Below are positions 6,685 through 13,476 of a stretch of 36,662 bases of DNA, in pieces. Location: NCBI GenBank assembly GCA_964495855.1, contig CAZBYY010000002.1, positions 1 to 36,662 of the forward strand, given 5' to 3'. Under the pieces are notes generated by a model. It saw only the letters and a program-made list of their open reading frames with translations. It did not search any database and had not been told where the DNA came from. The position numbers and the translations under genes are program-made. The DNA comes from an uncultured Acidobacterium sp. (GTDB taxonomy: Bacteria > Acidobacteriota > Vicinamibacteria > Vicinamibacterales > UBA2999). The stretch's first letter is position 1; the number at the start of each line of letters is the position of its first letter.

Positions 6685-8276
6685 ATCCGATGGTGAGTGT
6701 GGTGATCGCGGCCCGCGGCCGCAGTGCGTCGGCCGCCAGGCTGCTGCGGCAGTTGTCGCAGCAGACGATTGGCGCCGATCGATTCGAAGTCGTGGTCGTC
6801 GACGATGGCTCGCCGGAACCGCTGGCGCCGCAGCTTGCGGTTCTCGACACGCCGTTTCCGCTGCGATGCGTGCGCATCGAGTGGAGCGGGCCGGCGGCGG
6901 CGCGTCATCATGGTGCCAGGCTGGCCACCGGCGATGTGCTCGTCTTCATCGACGACGACATGCAAGTGGCGCCGGAATTCCTGGCGGCGCACGTGCGGCA
7001 CCACGAGGAGCACCCGCGCACCGTCGTGCTCGGCCGCATCGATCCGGACGCGTCGATCGAAGAGATGCCACTGTTCGAGCGGTACCACGCGCGCCAGCTG
7101 GCGCGGTGGCAGGATGCGGTGGCCCGCGGGGCGCTGCGGCCGCGCGGCATGCATCTTTGCACCGGCAATGTCTCGATGCGCCGCCGCGATTACTTCGAGG
7201 TCGGCGGATTCAATTCGGCGCTGCAGCGCTCCGAGGACCGTGAGCTCGGCATCCGTCTCGAGGATGCTGGATGCCTGATCGTGTACGGTGCGGATGCGGT
7301 GTCGGTCCATTCGTCGGATCACACCGATCTCGAGAGATGGTTGTCGCGCGCCGACCTGTACGGCCGCATCGACCGCCGGATTGCGGACATGCATCCCGAT
7401 GCGGGTGCGCATCCGCTGAACTTCTGGCCGCTCATCCATCCGCTGTCGCGGCCGATCGTGGCACTGGTGCTCGTTGCTCCGGCGCTCGGCGGCGTGTTGT
7501 CGCGCGCGGCATTCCGGCTGGCGGCCGCGCTCGATCGCCTTGGCGCGGGATCGGCGGCGGTCACGAGCGCCGCGCTCGCGTACGCGCTGCAGTACTTCGC
7601 CGGCTATCGCGCGGCGTGCGGCAGCATCGCGCAGGTGCGCCGCGAGTGGCGCGCCGCGCGCGCGAATGGGGAGCGTGGCGCGTTGCATCGTTGCCTCGCC
7701 GCGATCCGTGCCGATCACAACATGATGCGGCACCACCGCCTGAAGTACCACGGTGACGTGATCCGTTCGGCGCGATTGCCGATCGATCTGGTCTCGAGGG
7801 TCGGGCTGCAGATGCTTGCGGTGTACCGCGTGATGCGGCTGTTTGCCGAGTGGCGCGTGCCGCTCGTGCCGCTCGTGCTGTCGCGGCTGATCCGGCATCT
7901 CTACGGCGCCGAGATCCATTGGAACGCGAAGATCGCGCCCGGCGTGTCGATCGTCCACGGCACGGGCCTCGTGCTCAGCCACGCTGCCGAGGTCGAACGC
8001 GGCTGCATCCTGTTCCAGAGCGTGACGCTCGGAGAAAGCATCGACGCCGAAACCGGCCGTATCGGCGCGCCGCGGCTGGCCGCCGGCGTGCACGTCGGCC
8101 CCGGCGCGACGCTCCTCGGACCGATCGAGATCGGCGCGTCGAGCAAGATCGCTGCTGGTGTGGTGTTGATGACGAGCGTGCCGCAGGGCACGCTGGTGAT
8201 GCCGCCGCAGCCGGTGATCAGCCGGAGGCGCGTGGGCGCGCCGCGCGCCGCGATGCGCGCCGCGTCAGCGGCCTGA
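6681..8276 (+). CDS. Fusion protein: N-terminal GT2 glycosyltransferase, hydrophobic linker, C-terminal CysE-like hexapeptide acetyltransferase
   Basis: ATG 6681 overlaps the upstream stop (ATGA). The GT2 blocks are [28 protein letters not shown] and EDRELGIRL. The hydrophobic segment is [15 protein letters not shown]. The acetyltransferase module is [31 protein letters not shown]...[40 protein letters not shown]. Confidence 0.8.
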
Positions 8277-9050
8277 CTCGTGCTTGCCGATCAGGTAGCC
8301 GCGCTCGACGCGCAAGGCGGCGAGAGTCGGCGCAAGCTGTTCGCGAATTGCGTCGAGGTGCGGACGCACGTTGATCGCCACACCGTCGCGCGCGGCATGT
8401 TCGATCGTGCGCGCGACGTCGGCGATCGCCACCGCGCCGAGCGTGGCCGCCCCCGCCTTCAAGGTGTGGGCCGCGCGCTCGACCTCGCCCGAAGCGCCGG
8501 CAGTGGTCATCGACTCGATGCGCGCGATCAGGTCCGGCGTGTTGGTTTCAAACAGGTCGATCAGCGATCCGATCAGATCCGTGCCTCGATCCGTCGACAA
8601 GCCGACCAGTTGGCGCATCGCGCGTTGATCGACACGGACGCCACCCTGGGCAGGAGCGCCAGGCGCCGCCGGACCAGGCGCGGGCTCGCGCGTCAACAGG
8701 CCGCGCATCGCCGATGCGAATTCGGCCGGATCAAACGGCTTGGTGTAAATGCCGGCGGCGCCGAGTTTCTGCAATCGCGCCACTTCATCAGGCATGGCTT
8801 TCGCGGTCAGGAACACGATCGGCGTCGTTGCCGTCTCCGGCCGCTGGCGCAAGGCCTCGAACACCGTCGGGCCGTCCATGTCCGGCATCATCACGTCGAG
8901 GACGATGGCGTCGAACGGCTGGGAGGCGGCGAGCCGTAGCGCCTCGCTGCCGTTGGCCGCTTCGACGACCTCGAAGCCCGCCAGCTGCCGCAGCGACAAT
9001 CGCGCCACCGTGCGCGCGTCGATTTCATCGTCTACAAGAAGTATCTTCAC
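8265..9050 (-). CDS. Response-regulator receiver fused to a histidine phosphotransfer (Hpt) domain
   Basis: From GTG 9050 (alternative GTG 9059) the product starts VKILLVDDEID. Receiver motifs are AIVLDVMMPDMDG, IVFLTAK and IYTKPFD. A Pro/Ala linker is followed by the Hpt motif RAAHTLKAGAATLGA. The N-terminal 125 codons of track ORF 8265..9425 overlap the H-NOX gene and are rejected. Confidence 0.85.
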   Translation of the reverse strand: MKILLVDDEIDARTVARLSLRQLAGFEVVEAANGSEALRLAASQPFDAIVLDVMMPDMDGPTVFEALRQRPETATTPIVFLTAKAMPDEVARLQKLGAAGIYTKPFDPAEFASAMRGLLTREPAPGPAAPGAPAQGGVRVDQRAMRQLVGLSTDRGTDLIGSLIDLFETNTPDLIARIESMTTAGASGEVERAAHTLKAGAATLGAVAIADVARTIEHAARDGVAINVRPHLDAIREQLAPTLAALRVERGYLIGKHESGR

Positions 9051-9086
9051 TGCCGTCACTCGGGTGTGAAAGGTAGGATAAGTCAG

Positions 9087-12085: not shown

Positions 12086-12090
12086 GGCGC

Positions 12091-13476
12091 GTGCGCAACG
12101 TTCTCGTCGTCGAAGACGATCCTTCCGCCAGACAGGTGCTTGGTGCGGTGCTCCGCCGCTCCGGCTTCCCCCCTGTCGCGTTCGATTGTGCGTCGGCGGC
12201 GCTCGCGGGCTTGGAGCAGCAGGAGATCGATGCCGCGGTGATCGACCTGTTGCTGCCGGACATGTCGGGCGAGGAGTTGCTGCTCGAACTTCGGCGCCGG
12301 CTGCCGGAGCTGCCGGTGATCGTGCTCTCGGCGCAGGAAAGCGTGTCGCGCGCCGTCGAGATCATGAAGTTGCGGCCGTTCGACTATTTCGTGAAACCGT
12401 TCGATCACGAGCGGCTTGCGCGCAGCCTCGAAGCCGCGGTGCGCGAGCGCGAGCTGACCGAGCGCGTGCAGCGGCTCGAGCGCGAAGTGCAGGACACCTT
12501 CCGCTTCGAGGAGATCATCGGCCGCTCGGCGTCGATGCAACGCGTCTACGACCAGATCGAGAAGGTGCTCAACAACCGCGTGCCCGTGTTCATTCATGGG
12601 CAAAGCGGCACCGGCAAAGAGCTCGTCGCCAAGGCGATTCACTATCACGGCACGCGTCGCGCCGGACCGTTCGTCGCCCTCAACTGCGGCGCCATCGCGG
12701 AGAGCCTGCAGGAAAGCGAGCTCTTCGGCCACGAGAAGGGCGCCTTCACCGGCGCCGTGGGCCAGTCACGCGGGCGATTCGAACAGGCGCACGGCGGCAC
12801 GTTGTTCCTCGACGAAGTCGGCGAACTCAGCCCGGCGGTGCAGACGCGGCTGTTGCGCGTCCTGCAGGAAGGCACGTTCCAGCGCCTCGGCGGCACGCAG
12901 ACGATCACCGTCGATGTGCGCATCGTCTCGGCGACGCATCGCGACCTCGACGCGCTGGTCGCGGCCGGAACGTTCCGGCAGGATTTGTACTACCGCCTGA
13001 TGGTGTTCCCGCTCGAGATCCCGCCGCTGCGCGAGCGCCCTGAAGACATCCCGCCGCTCGTCGCCCATTTCGTCCGCAAGCATCACAAGGCGCTCGGCAG
13101 CGAGTCGACGACGTTTGATCGTGATGCGCTCGACATCCTGTGCCGCTGCGACTGGCCCGGCAACGTGCGCGAGCTCGAGAACATCGTCGTGCGCACGCTC
13201 GTGTCGGGCTCCGGCCCGAACCGCGGCATCGACGCACTGCCGCCGTATCTCGTGATGTGCGCGATGGGGCTCGGTGAAGCCGCGCCGACGCCGGCATCGG
13301 CGCCGACCGACGTCGTGCCGCTCGCGACGCTCGAAGAGCGCGCGATCCGGCATGCCATGCAGGTCGTGAACGGCAACGTCTCGCTGGCTGCGAGGCGGCT
13401 GGGCCTGGGCCGCGCGACGTTGTATCGCAAGCTTGCCGCCCTCGGGCTCGGCGGCGGCGACACCGCGGATCAGTAA
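12091..13476 (+). CDS. Sigma-54-dependent response regulator (NtrC/LuxO family: REC - AAA+ - Fis-type HTH)
   Basis: GTG 12091 lies 5 nt after the kinase stop. Receiver motifs are VLVVEDDPS, AAVIDLLLPDMSG and DYFVKPFD. Walker A is GQSGTGKE, the GAFTGA loop is present, and Walker B is LFLDEVGEL. The C-terminal HTH is NVSLAARRLGLGRATLYRKL. Confidence 0.9.
   Translation: MRNVLVVEDDPSARQVLGAVLRRSGFPPVAFDCASAALAGLEQQEIDAAVIDLLLPDMSGEELLLELRRRLPELPVIVLSAQESVSRAVEIMKLRPFDYFVKPFDHERLARSLEAAVRERELTERVQRLEREVQDTFRFEEIIGRSASMQRVYDQIEKVLNNRVPVFIHGQSGTGKELVAKAIHYHGTRRAGPFVALNCGAIAESLQESELFGHEKGAFTGAVGQSRGRFEQAHGGTLFLDEVGELSPAVQTRLLRVLQEGTFQRLGGTQTITVDVRIVSATHRDLDALVAAGTFRQDLYYRLMVFPLEIPPLRERPEDIPPLVAHFVRKHHKALGSESTTFDRDALDILCRCDWPGNVRELENIVVRTLVSGSGPNRGIDALPPYLVMCAMGLGEAAPTPASAPTDVVPLATLEERAIRHAMQVVNGNVSLAARRLGLGRATLYRKLAALGLGGGDTADQ

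What the first reader, a model, noticed from the sequence alone, without database searches (positions are those of the whole stretch)
8265..13476. Split sGC-like NO sensor feeding a four-step phosphorelay: H-NOX, HNOBA-PAS-GAF-PAS kinase, REC-Hpt and a sigma-54 activator
The H-NOX protein (9087-9644) is strikingly similar to the sGC beta1 heme domain. It has the MYGLVN start, the proximal His in LHSLH (His104) and the Y-x-S-x-R motif in HYQSTR. There is no obvious distal-pocket Tyr at the position aligned with the O2-binding H-NOX proteins, so NO selectivity is predicted.

The overlapping downstream gene begins with an H-NOX-associated (HNOBA) domain (about nt 9680-10050: FPFH, LRLKGQMI, GSP..DDL). 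This is the module that follows H-NOX inside animal guanylate cyclases. Here it is followed by a coiled coil, PAS, GAF, PAS and a complete HisKA/HATPase core, with no receiver.

A divergent REC-Hpt fusion (8265-9050, HTLKAG motif) and a downstream NtrC/LuxO-type activator (GAFTGA present) complete the parts for His-Asp-His-Asp transfer. That parallels the Vibrio H-NOX/HqsK-LuxU-LuxO logic but uses a different domain partition: a non-hybrid kinase, with the receiver fused to the Hpt. In effect the sGC architecture is preserved with the cyclase replaced by a kinase and the heme domain detached.
Basis: partly seen in the sequence, partly recalled or inferred. Interest (0 to 1): 0.8.

Follow-up and report, generated by a model that had tools for sequence, protein, structure and literature searches.

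The report
Nitric-oxide sensor relay beside slime genes
A soil-type bacterium (probably an acidobacterium) carries a complete, intact nitric-oxide sensing relay (heme sensor, kinase, phosphate shuttle, gene activator) next to genes for making extracellular sugar polymer; the parts are all of known kinds, but this combination and wiring have not been described.

Summary
The four genes are a stand-alone H-NOX (9087-9644), an HNOBA-PAS-GAF-PAS histidine kinase with no receiver (9644-12085), a divergent REC-Hpt (8265-9050) and an NtrC-family sigma-54 activator (12091-13476). All catalytic residues are intact.

Corrections:
- The GAF is reduced. It falls below the Pfam threshold, but its predicted fold is GAF.
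- The H-NOX is closer to Nostoc H-NOX (53% identity) than to sGC beta1.
- The "split sGC with a kinase" idea is not new. Nostoc H-NOX plus an H-NOXA kinase is already known and has a solved structure (PDB 2P04).

The four-step relay is supported by comparison but not proven. Sister loci carry REC-Hpt fused to the kinase C-terminus with the same activator type adjacent, and all four genes are co-conserved in three relatives.

New points:
- The first PAS is FixL-like and keeps the heme histidine.
- A close relative has H-NOX fused in frame to the kinase.
- The cluster abuts a Myxococcus-type EPS locus with an EpsW-like receiver.
- That locus has two conserved, divergent -24/-12 elements around an inverted repeat.

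Verdict: a new variant of known H-NOX phosphorelays (compare Vibrio HnoX-HahK-SypF/LuxU-SypG). Interest is moderate.

The parts
9087..9644 (+). Stand-alone H-NOX heme sensor (185 aa). His104 is the proximal ligand. Y133/S135/R137 form the propionate clamp. Met143 sits at the distal position.
   Evidence: Pfam HNOB 171 bits. PDB matches: Nostoc Alr2278 H-NOX at E 3e-64, sGC beta1 at E ~1e-31. 53% identity to Alr2278. Residues.
9644..12085 (+). Soluble sensor histidine kinase (813 aa) with domain order HNOBA, helical linker, PAS, reduced GAF, PAS, HisKA, HATPase_c. It has no receiver. Its start codon overlaps the H-NOX stop codon.
   Evidence: Pfam. Alignment with homologues. His586 and the N/G1/G2 boxes.
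9671..10150 (+). HNOBA (H-NOXA) PAS-like domain plus the start of the signalling helix. This is the presumed docking site for H-NOX.
   Evidence: PF07701 80.2 bits. PDB matches: sGC beta1 residues 207-368 at E 7e-11, Nostoc punctiforme kinase H-NOXA domain 2P04 at E 2.4e-10.
10199..10534 (+). PAS1, a FixL-like PAS and possible second heme site. H241, R247 and H255 correspond to BjFixL H200, R206 and H214. The O2-contacting R220 is replaced by I261.
   Evidence: The 14 best PDB matches are heme-PAS domains or an unidentified multi-sensor kinase (FixL 1dp6 at E 6.6e-20, DosP). Column check.
10571..11014 (+). Reduced GAF domain with an internal deletion and an insertion.
   Evidence: Pfam GAF_2 19.3 bits, below the cut-off. 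Homologues score 41-58 bits at the same position. Alignment A3. AF2 model with Foldseek GAF hits.
11015..11350 (+). PAS2, next to the DHp domain. It has no heme His.
   Evidence: Pfam PAS_9/PAS_8. Columns.
11372..12040 (+). HisKA (His586) plus the HATPase_c catalytic core.
   Evidence: Pfam 72.7 and 111.8 bits. Motifs.
8265..9050 (-). REC-Hpt phosphotransfer protein (261 aa). D52 is the acceptor and His195 the Hpt histidine. It is transcribed divergently from H-NOX across a 36-bp gap.
   Evidence: Pfam Response_reg 91.4 bits, Hpt 46.7 bits. Its best NCBIfam alignments are to the C-terminal REC-Hpt of ArcB, BarA and TorS. Orthologues sit at the same place in L040, L042 and L043.
12091..13476 (+). 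NtrC-family sigma-54 enhancer-binding response regulator (461 aa). D52, Walker A 170-177, GAFTGA 217-222, HTH_8.
   Evidence: Pfam. NCBIfam ntrC 434 bits (cut-off 558.6) and LuxO 354 bits (cut-off 800), so it is an orthologue of neither. 85-89% identical in L042 and L040.
1574..1978 (+). EpsW-like single-domain receiver inside the EPS operon. It is a possible third phospho-acceptor of the relay.
   Evidence: Pfam Response_reg. Best NCBIfam match is EpsW, 105 bits, below the cut-off of 200. Conserved in L042 and L043.
1210..1225 (-). Candidate sigma-54 -24/-12 element TGGCAACCGAATTGCT, 12 nt upstream of the EpsA/WecG-type glycosyltransferase gene.
   Evidence: Conserved as TGGCAAACGATTTGCT in L042 while the flanks diverge. 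Window-wide, the match count is not above chance.
1358..1373 (+). Second candidate -24/-12 element CGGCATGGAAGATGCA, upstream of the operon that runs small ORF, EpsW-like, EpsV-like, Wzy, glycosyltransferases.
   Evidence: The equivalent elements are TGGTATGCAAGATGCA in L042 and TGGCACGCAAGGTGCA in L043. Coordinates.
1266..1314 (.). Cluster of GTCTC/GAGAC half-sites, including the inverted repeat GTCTCAAAACGAGAC (1291-1305), lying between the two candidate promoters. This is a candidate activator binding site.
   Evidence: Four half-sites against 0.28 expected. It is the only such inverted repeat in the window. Conserved in L042.

Best explanation
This is a self-contained gas-sensing phosphorelay that probably controls exopolysaccharide production.

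1. Sensing (inferred from homology). The H-NOX protein binds ferrous heme through His104. It lacks a distal hydrogen-bonding Tyr, so it should bind NO but not O2.
2. Coupling to the kinase (partnership well supported; contact surface inferred). H-NOX is made in 1:1 coupling with the kinase. It docks on the kinase's N-terminal HNOBA/PAS domain and signalling helix, as the H-NOX domain does inside soluble guanylate cyclase. NO binding changes kinase autophosphorylation at His586. In every characterised H-NOX/kinase pair NO inhibits the kinase, so inhibition is the default expectation here.
3. Signal integration (speculative). The intervening FixL-like PAS, reduced GAF and second PAS let the kinase integrate other inputs. 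A second heme-borne O2 or redox signal is possible.
4. Phosphotransfer (supported by comparison, not shown). The phosphoryl group goes from His586 to Asp52 of the REC-Hpt protein, then to its His195, then to Asp52 of the NtrC-family activator. The kinase and the REC-Hpt protein together behave as a split 'unorthodox' kinase of the ArcB/BarA type.
5. Output (inferred). The phosphorylated activator assembles on an upstream site and drives sigma-54 promoters. The best candidates are the two divergent -24/-12 elements in the 1198-1387 intergenic region of the adjacent Myxococcus-type EPS cluster. The Hpt may also feed the EpsW-like receiver in that cluster.
For: - Domains and catalytic residues are all intact.
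- H-NOX is 53% identical to Nostoc H-NOX, with His, YxSxR and the distal Met conserved.
- The kinase N-terminus matches sGC beta1/alpha1 PAS-CC and the Nostoc H-NOXA domain 2P04.
- H-NOX and kinase overlap as TGATG. H-NOX lies directly upstream of the HNOBA gene in 23 of 27 GTDB loci across four or more phyla. A 72%-identical relative has an in-frame H-NOX-kinase fusion, seen in two assemblies.
- REC-Hpt is fused to the C-terminus of HNOBA kinases in L011/L015, L014, L016, L021, L029 and L034. An NtrC-type gene is adjacent in L014, L016 and L021.
- The REC-Hpt protein aligns best to the REC-Hpt ends of ArcB, BarA and TorS.
- The four genes are syntenic in L040, L042 and L043, at 49-89% identity.
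- EPS-type genes flank H-NOX/HNOBA loci in the window and in L007, L009, L011, L014, L016, L027 and L029. Glycosyltransferase pairs flank them in Nostocales.
- The flanking genes best match the M. xanthus EpsZ, EpsA, EpsW, EpsV and Wzy models.
- The two -24/-12 elements and the central inverted repeat are conserved in relatives.
- There is precedent. In V. fischeri, HnoX-HahK signals through the SypF Hpt or LuxU to the activator SypG and so to the syp polysaccharide locus (PMC12369376). In V. parahaemolyticus, H-NOX/HqsK signals to LuxU (PMC8738867, PMC6759604).
Against: - No phosphotransfer, heme binding or transcription has been measured.
- The kinase and activator are co-operonic and 5 nt apart, which usually marks a direct cognate pair. 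REC-Hpt is on the other strand.
- The window's REC is no closer to the fused RECs of other HNOBA kinases than to unrelated receivers. The fusion argument therefore rests on architecture, not on orthology.
- One relative (L007/L013) has kinase, activator and a lone Hpt, with no intermediate receiver nearby.
- Window-wide, sigma-54 consensus matches are at chance level (1 found, 0.91 expected).
- Both candidate -12 elements sit only 12-16 nt from the annotated start codons, which would imply near-leaderless mRNAs.
- L042 has a second sigma-54 activator/kinase pair nearby that could own those promoters.
- The L040 assembly also has a frameshift in its activator gene, so its H-NOX-kinase fusion needs read-level confirmation.
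Confidence: 0.5

Rival explanations
1. This is an ordinary two-component pair with a side branch. The kinase phosphorylates the co-operonic NtrC-type activator directly. The REC-Hpt protein is then a phosphate sink, a reverse-flow phosphatase route, or a connector that carries phosphate to other receivers such as the EpsW-like protein.
For: - Kinase and activator are 5 nt apart in one operon, and REC-Hpt is divergent.
- L007/L013 lack an intermediate receiver.
- The REC of REC-Hpt is not specially related to the fused RECs.
- EpsW in M. xanthus is fed by the CheA-type kinase DifE (PMC4671073). That its P1 domain is Hpt-like is general knowledge of CheA kinases. An Hpt-to-EpsW-like route is therefore plausible.
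Against: - Six HNOBA kinases carry REC-Hpt in cis, and three of these have the same activator type as neighbour. In those loci the activator must be fed by the Hpt.
- REC-Hpt is retained at the same position in three relatives at 49-76% identity.
- Sigma-54 activators fed by Hpt proteins are well known (LuxU-LuxO; SypF-SypG, PMC12369376).
Confidence: 0.25
2. The relay is real, but its output is not the neighbouring EPS cluster. The activator controls a sigma-54 regulon elsewhere, and the EPS adjacency and -24/-12 matches are coincidental or belong to another activator.
For: - Sigma-54 consensus matches in the window are at chance frequency.
- The candidate promoters are unusually close to the start codons.
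- L042 encodes a second sigma-54 activator nearby.
- L040 keeps the relay without the EPS genes upstream.
Against: - Both elements and the central inverted repeat are conserved while the surrounding intergenic sequence diverges.
- The inverted repeat is unique in 36.6 kb.
- EPS or glycosyltransferase genes flank H-NOX/HNOBA loci in several phyla.
Confidence: 0.3
3. H-NOX does not report NO in vivo. It may act as a redox or thiol-oxidation sensor, or as a CO sensor. In that case the FixL-like PAS heme could be the physiologically dominant gas sensor of the kinase.
For: - V. cholerae H-NOX can act heme-free as an oxidation sensor (PMC7108781 abstract).
- PAS1 keeps the FixL proximal His and both propionate ligands.
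- Sister kinases carry an even more FixL-like PAS with R220 intact.
- A related kinase, P0125, lacks HNOBA altogether but keeps the FixL-type PAS pair.
Against: - All heme-binding determinants of H-NOX are intact. The distal pocket matches that of NO/CO-binding Nostoc H-NOX.
- The window kinase has lost the best FixL-type PAS, and its remaining one lacks the O2-stabilising Arg.
Confidence: 0.1

Closest known systems
Nostoc H-NOX (Alr2278 / Npun) with the adjacent H-NOXA (HNOBA) signal-transduction histidine kinase (PDB 2O09, 2P04)
   Same: - A stand-alone H-NOX gene lies immediately upstream of a kinase whose N-terminus is an HNOBA/PAS domain.
- H-NOX is 53% identical, and the HNOBA domain matches 2P04 at E 2.4e-10.
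- Eight Nostocales and other cyanobacterial loci show the gene pair.
   Different: - The cyanobacterial kinases are short (~480 aa: HNOBA, helix, HisKA, HATPase).
- They have no FixL-like PAS, GAF or second PAS.
- They have no REC-Hpt or sigma-54 activator nearby.
- No functional study of that kinase was found in the library.
Vibrio fischeri HnoX-HahK to SypF(Hpt)/LuxU to SypG to the syp polysaccharide locus; V. harveyi/parahaemolyticus H-NOX-HqsK to LuxU to LuxO
   Same: - The circuit runs from an NO-binding H-NOX in an operon with a kinase, through a His-Asp-His-Asp relay and an Hpt, to an NtrC-family activator. That SypG and LuxO are sigma-54-dependent is prior knowledge.
- In V. fischeri the output is a polysaccharide locus (PMC12369376, PMC8738867).
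   Different: - The Vibrio kinases are hybrid (receiver in cis), and the Hpt is a separate protein or belongs to another kinase. Here the kinase has no receiver, and REC is fused to Hpt.
- From prior knowledge, not tested here, the Vibrio kinases lack HNOBA, FixL-PAS and GAF.
- The activator here is not a LuxO orthologue (354 bits against a cut-off of 800).
- All four genes here form one cluster.
Animal soluble guanylate cyclase beta1 (H-NOX, PAS/HNOBA, coiled coil, cyclase)
   Same: - The order H-NOX, HNOBA, helix is preserved. It spans two translationally coupled genes here and a single polypeptide in relative P0122.
   Different: - The output is a histidine kinase rather than a cyclase.
- Extra PAS-GAF-PAS modules lie between the helix and the output domain.
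- Similarity is lower than to cyanobacterial proteins (E ~1e-31 for H-NOX, 7e-11 for HNOBA).
FixL heme-PAS oxygen sensor kinases (Bradyrhizobium/Sinorhizobium)
   Same: - PAS1 matches the FixL heme domain at E 6.6e-20.
- H200, R206, H214, Y207, L236 and I238 equivalents are kept.
   Different: - R220 and Y203 equivalents are changed.
- The domain is embedded downstream of HNOBA.
- The partner regulator is sigma-54-type, not FixJ.
Unorthodox (tripartite) sensor kinases ArcB, BarA, TorS
   Same: - Kinase plus REC plus Hpt feed a cytoplasmic response regulator.
- The REC-Hpt protein aligns to their C-terminal halves.
- Sister HNOBA kinases are genuinely tripartite.
   Different: - Here the REC-Hpt half is a separate, divergently transcribed gene.
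- The kinase is soluble.
Myxococcus xanthus EPS pathway regulation (EpsW~P activating the EpsZ phosphoglycosyl transferase)
   Same: - The neighbouring cluster best matches the EpsZ, EpsA, EpsW, EpsV and Wzy_EPS models.
- It includes a single-domain receiver inside the operon (PMC12802240).
   Different: - All scores are below the equivalog cut-offs.
- The kinase system next door is an H-NOX relay rather than the Dif chemosensory system.
- The organism is not a myxobacterium.

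Membership tests
H-NOX (Pfam HNOB, PF07700) | Profile match above the curated cut-off over the full domain | tested here: met
   171 bits against a cut-off of 25.5. Residues 2-163 cover profile positions 1-163.
H-NOX (Pfam HNOB, PF07700) | Proximal heme histidine and the Y-x-S-x-R propionate motif | tested here: met
   His104 aligns with Nostoc His105. Y133/S135/R137 align with Y134/S136/R138.
H-NOX (Pfam HNOB, PF07700) | NO-selective subclass: no distal hydrogen-bonding Tyr (Tt H-NOX Y140 position) | tested here: met
   Met143 aligns with Nostoc Met144. The equivalence of Met144 to sGC I145 and Tt Y140 comes from prior knowledge, not from a tool result.
H-NOX (Pfam HNOB, PF07700) | Binds heme and NO | not testable with these tools
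   Requires expression and UV-visible spectroscopy.
HNOBA/H-NOXA sensor kinases (Nostoc type) | N-terminal HNOBA domain above the Pfam cut-off and similar to the solved H-NOXA domain | tested here: met
   PF07701 80.2 bits against 23.4. 2P04 at E 2.4e-10, sGC beta1 at E 7e-11.
HNOBA/H-NOXA sensor kinases (Nostoc type) | H-NOX gene immediately upstream | tested here: met
   TGATG overlap. The same adjacency holds in 23 of 27 GTDB loci.
Multi-step His-Asp-His-Asp phosphorelay | All four phospho-sites present: H-box His, receiver Asp, Hpt His, terminal receiver Asp | tested here: met
   His586; D52 and His195 of REC-Hpt; D52 of the activator. The accessory acidic, Thr/Ser and Lys residues are also present.
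Multi-step His-Asp-His-Asp phosphorelay | Components are functionally linked (fused or co-conserved in other genomes) | tested here: met
   Kinase-REC-Hpt fusions occur in six loci, three of them with an adjacent activator. Synteny holds in L040, L042 and L043. Caveat: the RECs are not demonstrably orthologous.
Multi-step His-Asp-His-Asp phosphorelay | Phosphate actually flows from kinase to REC to Hpt to activator | not testable with these tools
   Needs in vitro phosphotransfer profiling.
NtrC-family sigma-54 enhancer-binding response regulators | REC, AAA+ domain with GAFTGA, and HTH_8 | tested here: met
   Pfam. GAFTGA 217-222, Walker A 170-177, Walker B D241/E242.
LuxO / NtrC orthologues | Score above the NCBIfam equivalog cut-off | tested here: not met
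   ntrC 434 bits against 558.6. LuxO 354 bits against 800.
Vibrio H-NOX/HqsK(HahK)-LuxU-LuxO(SypG) circuit | Hybrid kinase with a receiver in cis and a stand-alone (or borrowed) Hpt | tested here: not met
   The kinase has no Response_reg domain, and the Hpt is fused to a receiver.
GAF domain | Pfam profile above the cut-off | tested here: not met
   GAF_2 19.3 bits against 28.6. GAF 17 bits against 22.4.
GAF domain | GAF fold | tested here: met
   AF2 model with pLDDT 85.7. The top Foldseek PDB hits are all GAF domains or GAF-containing proteins. Homologues have GAF_2 at 41-58 bits in the aligned position.
FixL-type heme-PAS | Similarity to the FixL heme domain, with the proximal His and propionate ligands | tested here: met
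   1dp6 at E 6.6e-20. H241/R247/H255 correspond to H200/R206/H214.
FixL-type heme-PAS | O2-stabilising Arg (BjFixL R220) | tested here: not met
   Aligned residue is I261, with R259/R260 displaced by 1-2 positions.
Myxococcus-type Wzx/Wzy EPS pathway with EpsW regulation | Orthologues of EpsZ, EpsA, EpsW, EpsV and Wzy | tested here: inconclusive
   These are the best NCBIfam matches for five flanking genes, but all score below the equivalog cut-offs.

The most novel reading that the evidence does not exclude
The kinase is a two-heme coincidence detector. It reads NO in trans through H-NOX docked on HNOBA, and reads O2 or redox state in cis through a FixL-derived heme-PAS.

The relay then splits at the Hpt. 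One branch goes to the sigma-54 activator, which transcribes the two divergent eps operons. The other goes to the EpsW-like receiver, which activates the EpsZ-type priming transferase post-translationally.

This would give Acidobacteria NO/O2-gated control of matrix production. The in-frame H-NOX-HNOBA-kinase fusion in a close relative would then be a bacterial protein with the complete N-terminal half of soluble guanylate cyclase.
Probability: 0.2. Interest if true: 0.65.

Novelty: new variant of a known kind. Interest (0 to 1): 0.45.

Why it matters
H-NOX signalling has been worked out almost entirely in Proteobacteria, chiefly Vibrio, Shewanella and Legionella. The kinases studied there are not thought to carry the HNOBA domain (prior knowledge, not tested here). 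The HNOBA-type kinase is the true bacterial counterpart of the sGC sensor half. It has a crystal structure but, as far as the searched literature shows, no functional study.

This locus and its relatives offer a compact and complete test system. Sensor, kinase, shuttle, activator and probable target promoters all lie within about 12 kb, in an abundant and poorly understood soil phylum. Natural fused and split variants exist at both the H-NOX/kinase junction and the kinase/REC-Hpt junction.

The system could show how H-NOX talks to a PAS/coiled-coil module when the output is a kinase. It could also link NO, and possibly O2, to exopolysaccharide production in Acidobacteria.

It does not overturn any concept. 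Each module and the overall logic have precedents.

Tried and rejected
- Searching the 5.8-billion protein set with the HNOBA fragment alone found nothing, so one capped search was lost. The full-length kinase and the H-NOX searches worked.
- The founding papers (Iyer 2003, Ma 2008) are not held. Their content is cited only through papers that reference them (PMC2904703, PMC2828450) and through the PDB matches.
- A window-wide sigma-54 consensus scan is not enriched. There were 4 hits against 13.9 expected at two mismatches or fewer, and 1 against 0.91 at one mismatch or fewer. The promoter case therefore rests only on position and on conservation in L042 and L043.
- I tested whether the window's REC-Hpt is a recent fission product of a fused kinase. 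Its REC is 62% identical to the L009 orthologue but no closer to fused RECs than to unrelated receivers. Recent fission is rejected. Only the architecture-level argument stands.
- Orthology with LuxO or NtrC is rejected on the NCBIfam cut-offs.
- Sigma-70 promoter, terminator and Rfam scans of the region gave nothing useful.
- The idea that the window's GAF is a normal ligand-binding GAF is rejected.
- I considered that the arrangement could be an assembly chimera. It is rejected because the same gene order is found on contigs from six sequencing runs.

Full report
**1. What is in the sequence**

ORF listing, GC3 filtering and Pfam scans give four genes at the reported coordinates. Independent gene calls on contigs from six other sequencing runs of the same organism give identical boundaries, so the arrangement is not an assembly artefact.

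- **REC-Hpt, 8265-9050 (-).** Response_reg 91.4 bits and Hpt 46.7 bits.
- **H-NOX, 9087-9644 (+).** HNOB 171 bits.
- **Kinase, 9644-12085 (+).** HNOBA 80.2 bits, PAS at aa 186-297, PAS at aa 458-569, HisKA, HATPase_c, and no receiver.
- **Activator, 12091-13476 (+).** REC, Sigma54_activat (237.5 bits), AAA_lid and HTH_8.

Every catalytic residue is intact:
- H-NOX: His104, Y133/S135/R137.
- Kinase: His586 and the N, G1 and G2 boxes.
- REC-Hpt: D7/D8/D52/T82/K104 and His195 (HTLKAG).
- Activator: D9/D10/D52/S80/K102, Walker A, GAFTGA.

The H-NOX stop overlaps the kinase start (TGATG). The activator starts 5 nt after the kinase stop. H-NOX, kinase and activator therefore form one operon. REC-Hpt diverges from it across a 36-bp gap.

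**2. Corrections to the description**

*The GAF is reduced.*
- It is invisible to Pfam at E<0.01 in the whole protein and scores 19.3 bits when scanned alone.
- Homologous kinases have GAF_2 at 41-58 bits in the aligned position.
- The window's subclade has a ~24-residue deletion and an 11-residue insertion.
- An AlphaFold model (pLDDT 85.7, four strands) finds only GAF domains among its best PDB matches.
- The fold is therefore GAF, but the usual pocket is unlikely to be intact.

*H-NOX is nearer to cyanobacterial H-NOX than to sGC.* It matches Nostoc Alr2278 at E 3e-64 with 53% identity, and sGC beta1 at E ~1e-31.

*The first PAS is FixL-like.*
- The best PDB matches of PAS1 are FixL heme domains (E 6.6e-20), followed by DosP.
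- BjFixL H200, R206 and H214 are conserved as H241, R247 and H255. The distal L236/I238 and Y207 also align.
- The O2-contacting R220 aligns with I261.
- Sister kinases (L007, L009, L026) carry an additional, far more FixL-like PAS (E 1e-33 to 1e-35, R220 kept). The window kinase has lost it.

**3. Relatives**

*Origin.* The closest named H-NOX is from an Acidobacteria MAG (68% identity).

*Survey.* I scanned GTDB species representatives with an HNOBA alignment and then mapped domains by profile search. This gave 27 loci in Acidobacteriota, Nostocales and other cyanobacteria, Verrucomicrobiota, Acidovorax and a deltaproteobacterial MAG. An H-NOX gene lies directly upstream of the HNOBA gene in 23 of the 27.

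*Architectures:*
- Cyanobacteria have the short H-NOX plus HNOBA-HisKA-HATPase pair and nothing else.
- Verrucomicrobia have hybrid kinases.
- Acidobacteria show three partitions of the same parts:
  - kinase-REC-Hpt fused, with an NtrC-type gene adjacent (L014, L016, L021), or without one (L011/L015)
  - kinase plus separate REC-Hpt plus activator (the window, L009/L043, L040, L042; also L032, where REC-Hpt precedes H-NOX)
  - kinase plus activator plus a lone Hpt (L007/L013)

*Close relatives.*
- The full-length kinase search found P0123. It is 69% identical and has complete synteny, including the EPS genes.
- The same search found P0122. It is 72% identical, and H-NOX is fused in frame to the kinase (junction ...YRATD-MPVSLS...). 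The DNA there is 2 nt shorter than the window's TGATG overlap. The junction is identical in two assemblies.
- The same assembly has a frameshift in its activator gene, so the fusion needs read-level confirmation.
- Identities to L040 / L042 / L043: activator 89 / 85 / 69%, H-NOX 82 / 77 / 66%, REC-Hpt 76 / 68 / 49%, kinase 72 / 69 / 54%.

**4. How it most likely works**

*H-NOX senses NO.* The heme ligand and propionate clamp are present, and Met143 occupies the Nostoc Met144 position. By prior knowledge that position corresponds to sGC I145 and to the O2-binding Tyr140 of the Thermoanaerobacter protein. This predicts an NO- or CO-binding, O2-excluding sensor.

*H-NOX acts on the kinase.* Translational coupling, near-universal adjacency and the natural fusion make its partnership with the HNOBA kinase very likely. 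The docking surface (HNOBA plus signalling helix) is inferred from sGC, whose beta1 and alpha1 PAS-CC regions match kinase residues 6-167.

*The phosphate route is less certain.* In favour of kinase to REC-Hpt to activator:
- In six loci the REC-Hpt is part of the kinase. In three of these the activator is the neighbour and so must be fed by the Hpt.
- The window's REC-Hpt aligns best to the REC-Hpt ends of ArcB, BarA and TorS.
- The gene is retained in all close relatives.

Against it:
- Kinase and activator show the classic cognate gene arrangement.
- No REC orthology links the split and fused forms.
- L007/L013 lack an intermediate receiver.

I put the four-step route at about 0.6 and the direct route with a side branch at about 0.25.

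**5. Output**

*The flanking cluster.* Upstream of REC-Hpt lies a polysaccharide cluster. Its genes best match the Myxococcus xanthus EPS pathway models, all below the equivalog cut-offs:
- EpsZ priming transferase (1-429, partial)
- EpsA (430-1197)
- EpsW single-domain receiver (1574-1978)
- EpsV (1975-3471)
- Wzy_EPS (3471-4946)

*Association across genomes.* EPS or glycosyltransferase genes flank H-NOX/HNOBA loci in the window and in L007, L009, L011, L014, L016, L027 and L029. Glycosyltransferase pairs flank them in Nostocales.

*Candidate promoters in the 190-bp divergent intergenic region (1198-1387):*
- A -24/-12 element faces each operon: TGGCAACCGAATTGCT at 1210-1225 (-) and CGGCATGGAAGATGCA at 1358-1373 (+).
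- Both are conserved in relatives while the flanks diverge. The first is TGGCAAACGATTTGCT in L042. The second is TGGTATGCAAGATGCA in L042 and TGGCACGCAAGGTGCA in L043.
- Between them are four GTCTC/GAGAC half-sites (0.28 expected). They include the only GTCTC-N5-GAGAC inverted repeat in the window, and they are conserved in L042.

This is the layout expected of an enhancer-dependent promoter pair.

*Caveats:*
- The window-wide count of consensus matches is at chance.
- Both elements lie 12-16 nt from the annotated start codons.
- L042 has another sigma-54 activator nearby.

*A second possible branch.* In M. xanthus, phosphorylated EpsW activates EpsZ directly (PMC12802240). EpsW is fed by the CheA-type kinase DifE (PMC4671073). 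An Hpt-to-EpsW-like branch is therefore a reasonable second output here.

**6. Comparison with what is known**

- **Domain level.** The split H-NOX / HNOBA-kinase pair is the known Nostoc arrangement. The H-NOXA domain of a Nostoc punctiforme kinase was solved to model sGC dimerisation (PDB 2P04; PMC2904703, PMC2828450). No functional study of that kinase was found.
- **Circuit level.** The closest analogues are in Vibrio. In V. fischeri, HnoX-HahK signals through the Hpt of SypF or LuxU to the activator SypG and so to the syp polysaccharide locus (PMC12369376). In V. parahaemolyticus and V. harveyi, H-NOX-HqsK signals through LuxU to LuxO (PMC8738867, PMC6759604).
- **What differs here.** The kinase is of the HNOBA type with FixL-like PAS, GAF and PAS inserted. 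It has no receiver, and the receiver sits on the Hpt protein. The activator is neither LuxO nor NtrC by the NCBIfam cut-offs. Everything, including the probable targets, lies in one cluster in a probable acidobacterium.
- **Prior reports.** No paper combining H-NOX with Acidobacteria surfaced.

**7. Verdict**

The finding is real and well described, and its mechanism is plausible. It is a new variant of a known kind rather than a new kind.

What is worth following up:
- the possible second heme site
- the natural fusion and fission series at both junctions
- the EPS/EpsW link

I score interest at 0.45.

Noticed in passing
window 10199-10534 (kinase aa 186-297): The first PAS domain is FixL-like. 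Its best PDB matches are FixL heme domains, and it keeps the proximal His (H241) and both propionate ligands. It lacks the O2-contacting Arg. The kinase may therefore carry its own heme in addition to the H-NOX partner.
   Followed up: partly
L040 5097-8111 and L041 1534-4548 (protein P0122): A 72%-identical relative encodes H-NOX fused in frame to the HNOBA kinase (1004 aa). The DNA junction is identical in two assemblies and the neighbours are the same. The same contig has a frameshift in the activator gene, so the fusion needs read-level confirmation.
   Followed up: partly
L007 8564-11449, L009 8558-11422, L026 ~10004-11934: Sister kinases carry an extra PAS that is very close to the FixL heme domain (E 1e-33 to 1e-35, with H200, R206 and R220 all conserved). 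It lies between HNOBA and the PAS that the window retains. These kinases would combine H-NOX and FixL-type sensing in one protein.
   Followed up: partly
window 1-8276: The flanking polysaccharide cluster best matches the Myxococcus xanthus EPS pathway models (EpsZ, EpsA, EpsW, EpsV, Wzy_EPS). It also has two GT2 genes and hexapeptide acyltransferases, one of them fused to a GT2. All scores are below the equivalog cut-offs.
   Followed up: partly
window 1198-1387: The divergent intergenic region holds two conserved -24/-12-like elements (1210-1225 on the minus strand, 1358-1373 on the plus strand). Between them is a conserved cluster of GTCTC/GAGAC half-sites, including GTCTCAAAACGAGAC at 1291-1305. 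Both elements sit 12-16 nt from the annotated start codons, which suggests near-leaderless transcripts or mis-set starts.
   Followed up: partly
window 1388-1564: A 58-codon hydrophobic small ORF directly precedes the EpsW-like receiver gene. A small ORF is called at the same position in L042 (59 aa) and L043 (55 aa).
   Followed up: no
window 13470-19728: Downstream of the activator lies a block of four genes: a PD40 beta-propeller protein (minus strand), a methyltransferase, a 546-aa protein with no family match, and an STT3/AglB-type oligosaccharyltransferase. The STT3's best NCBIfam match is the archaeosortase-A-associated OST (376 bits, cut-off 450). The block is syntenic in L040. An STT3-type enzyme in a probable acidobacterium is unusual.
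   Followed up: no
L007 13059-13846 (= L013): In this Acidobacteria MAG the relay partner is a lone 116-aa Hpt followed by a STAS-domain protein. No intermediate receiver is nearby. This hints at a different wiring, possibly a partner-switching output.
   Followed up: no
L025 5029-7662 and L028 10001-12634 (Acidovorax): Here the HNOBA protein downstream of H-NOX has no histidine-kinase core in a ~900-aa ORF. A separate hybrid kinase sits upstream. The output domain was not identified.
   Followed up: no
protein P0125 (1047 aa, 41% identical to the kinase): This is a related kinase with the same FixL-PAS pair, GAF, PAS and catalytic core but no HNOBA domain. It suggests that HNOBA was added to, or lost from, a pre-existing FixL-like multi-sensor kinase.
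   Followed up: no
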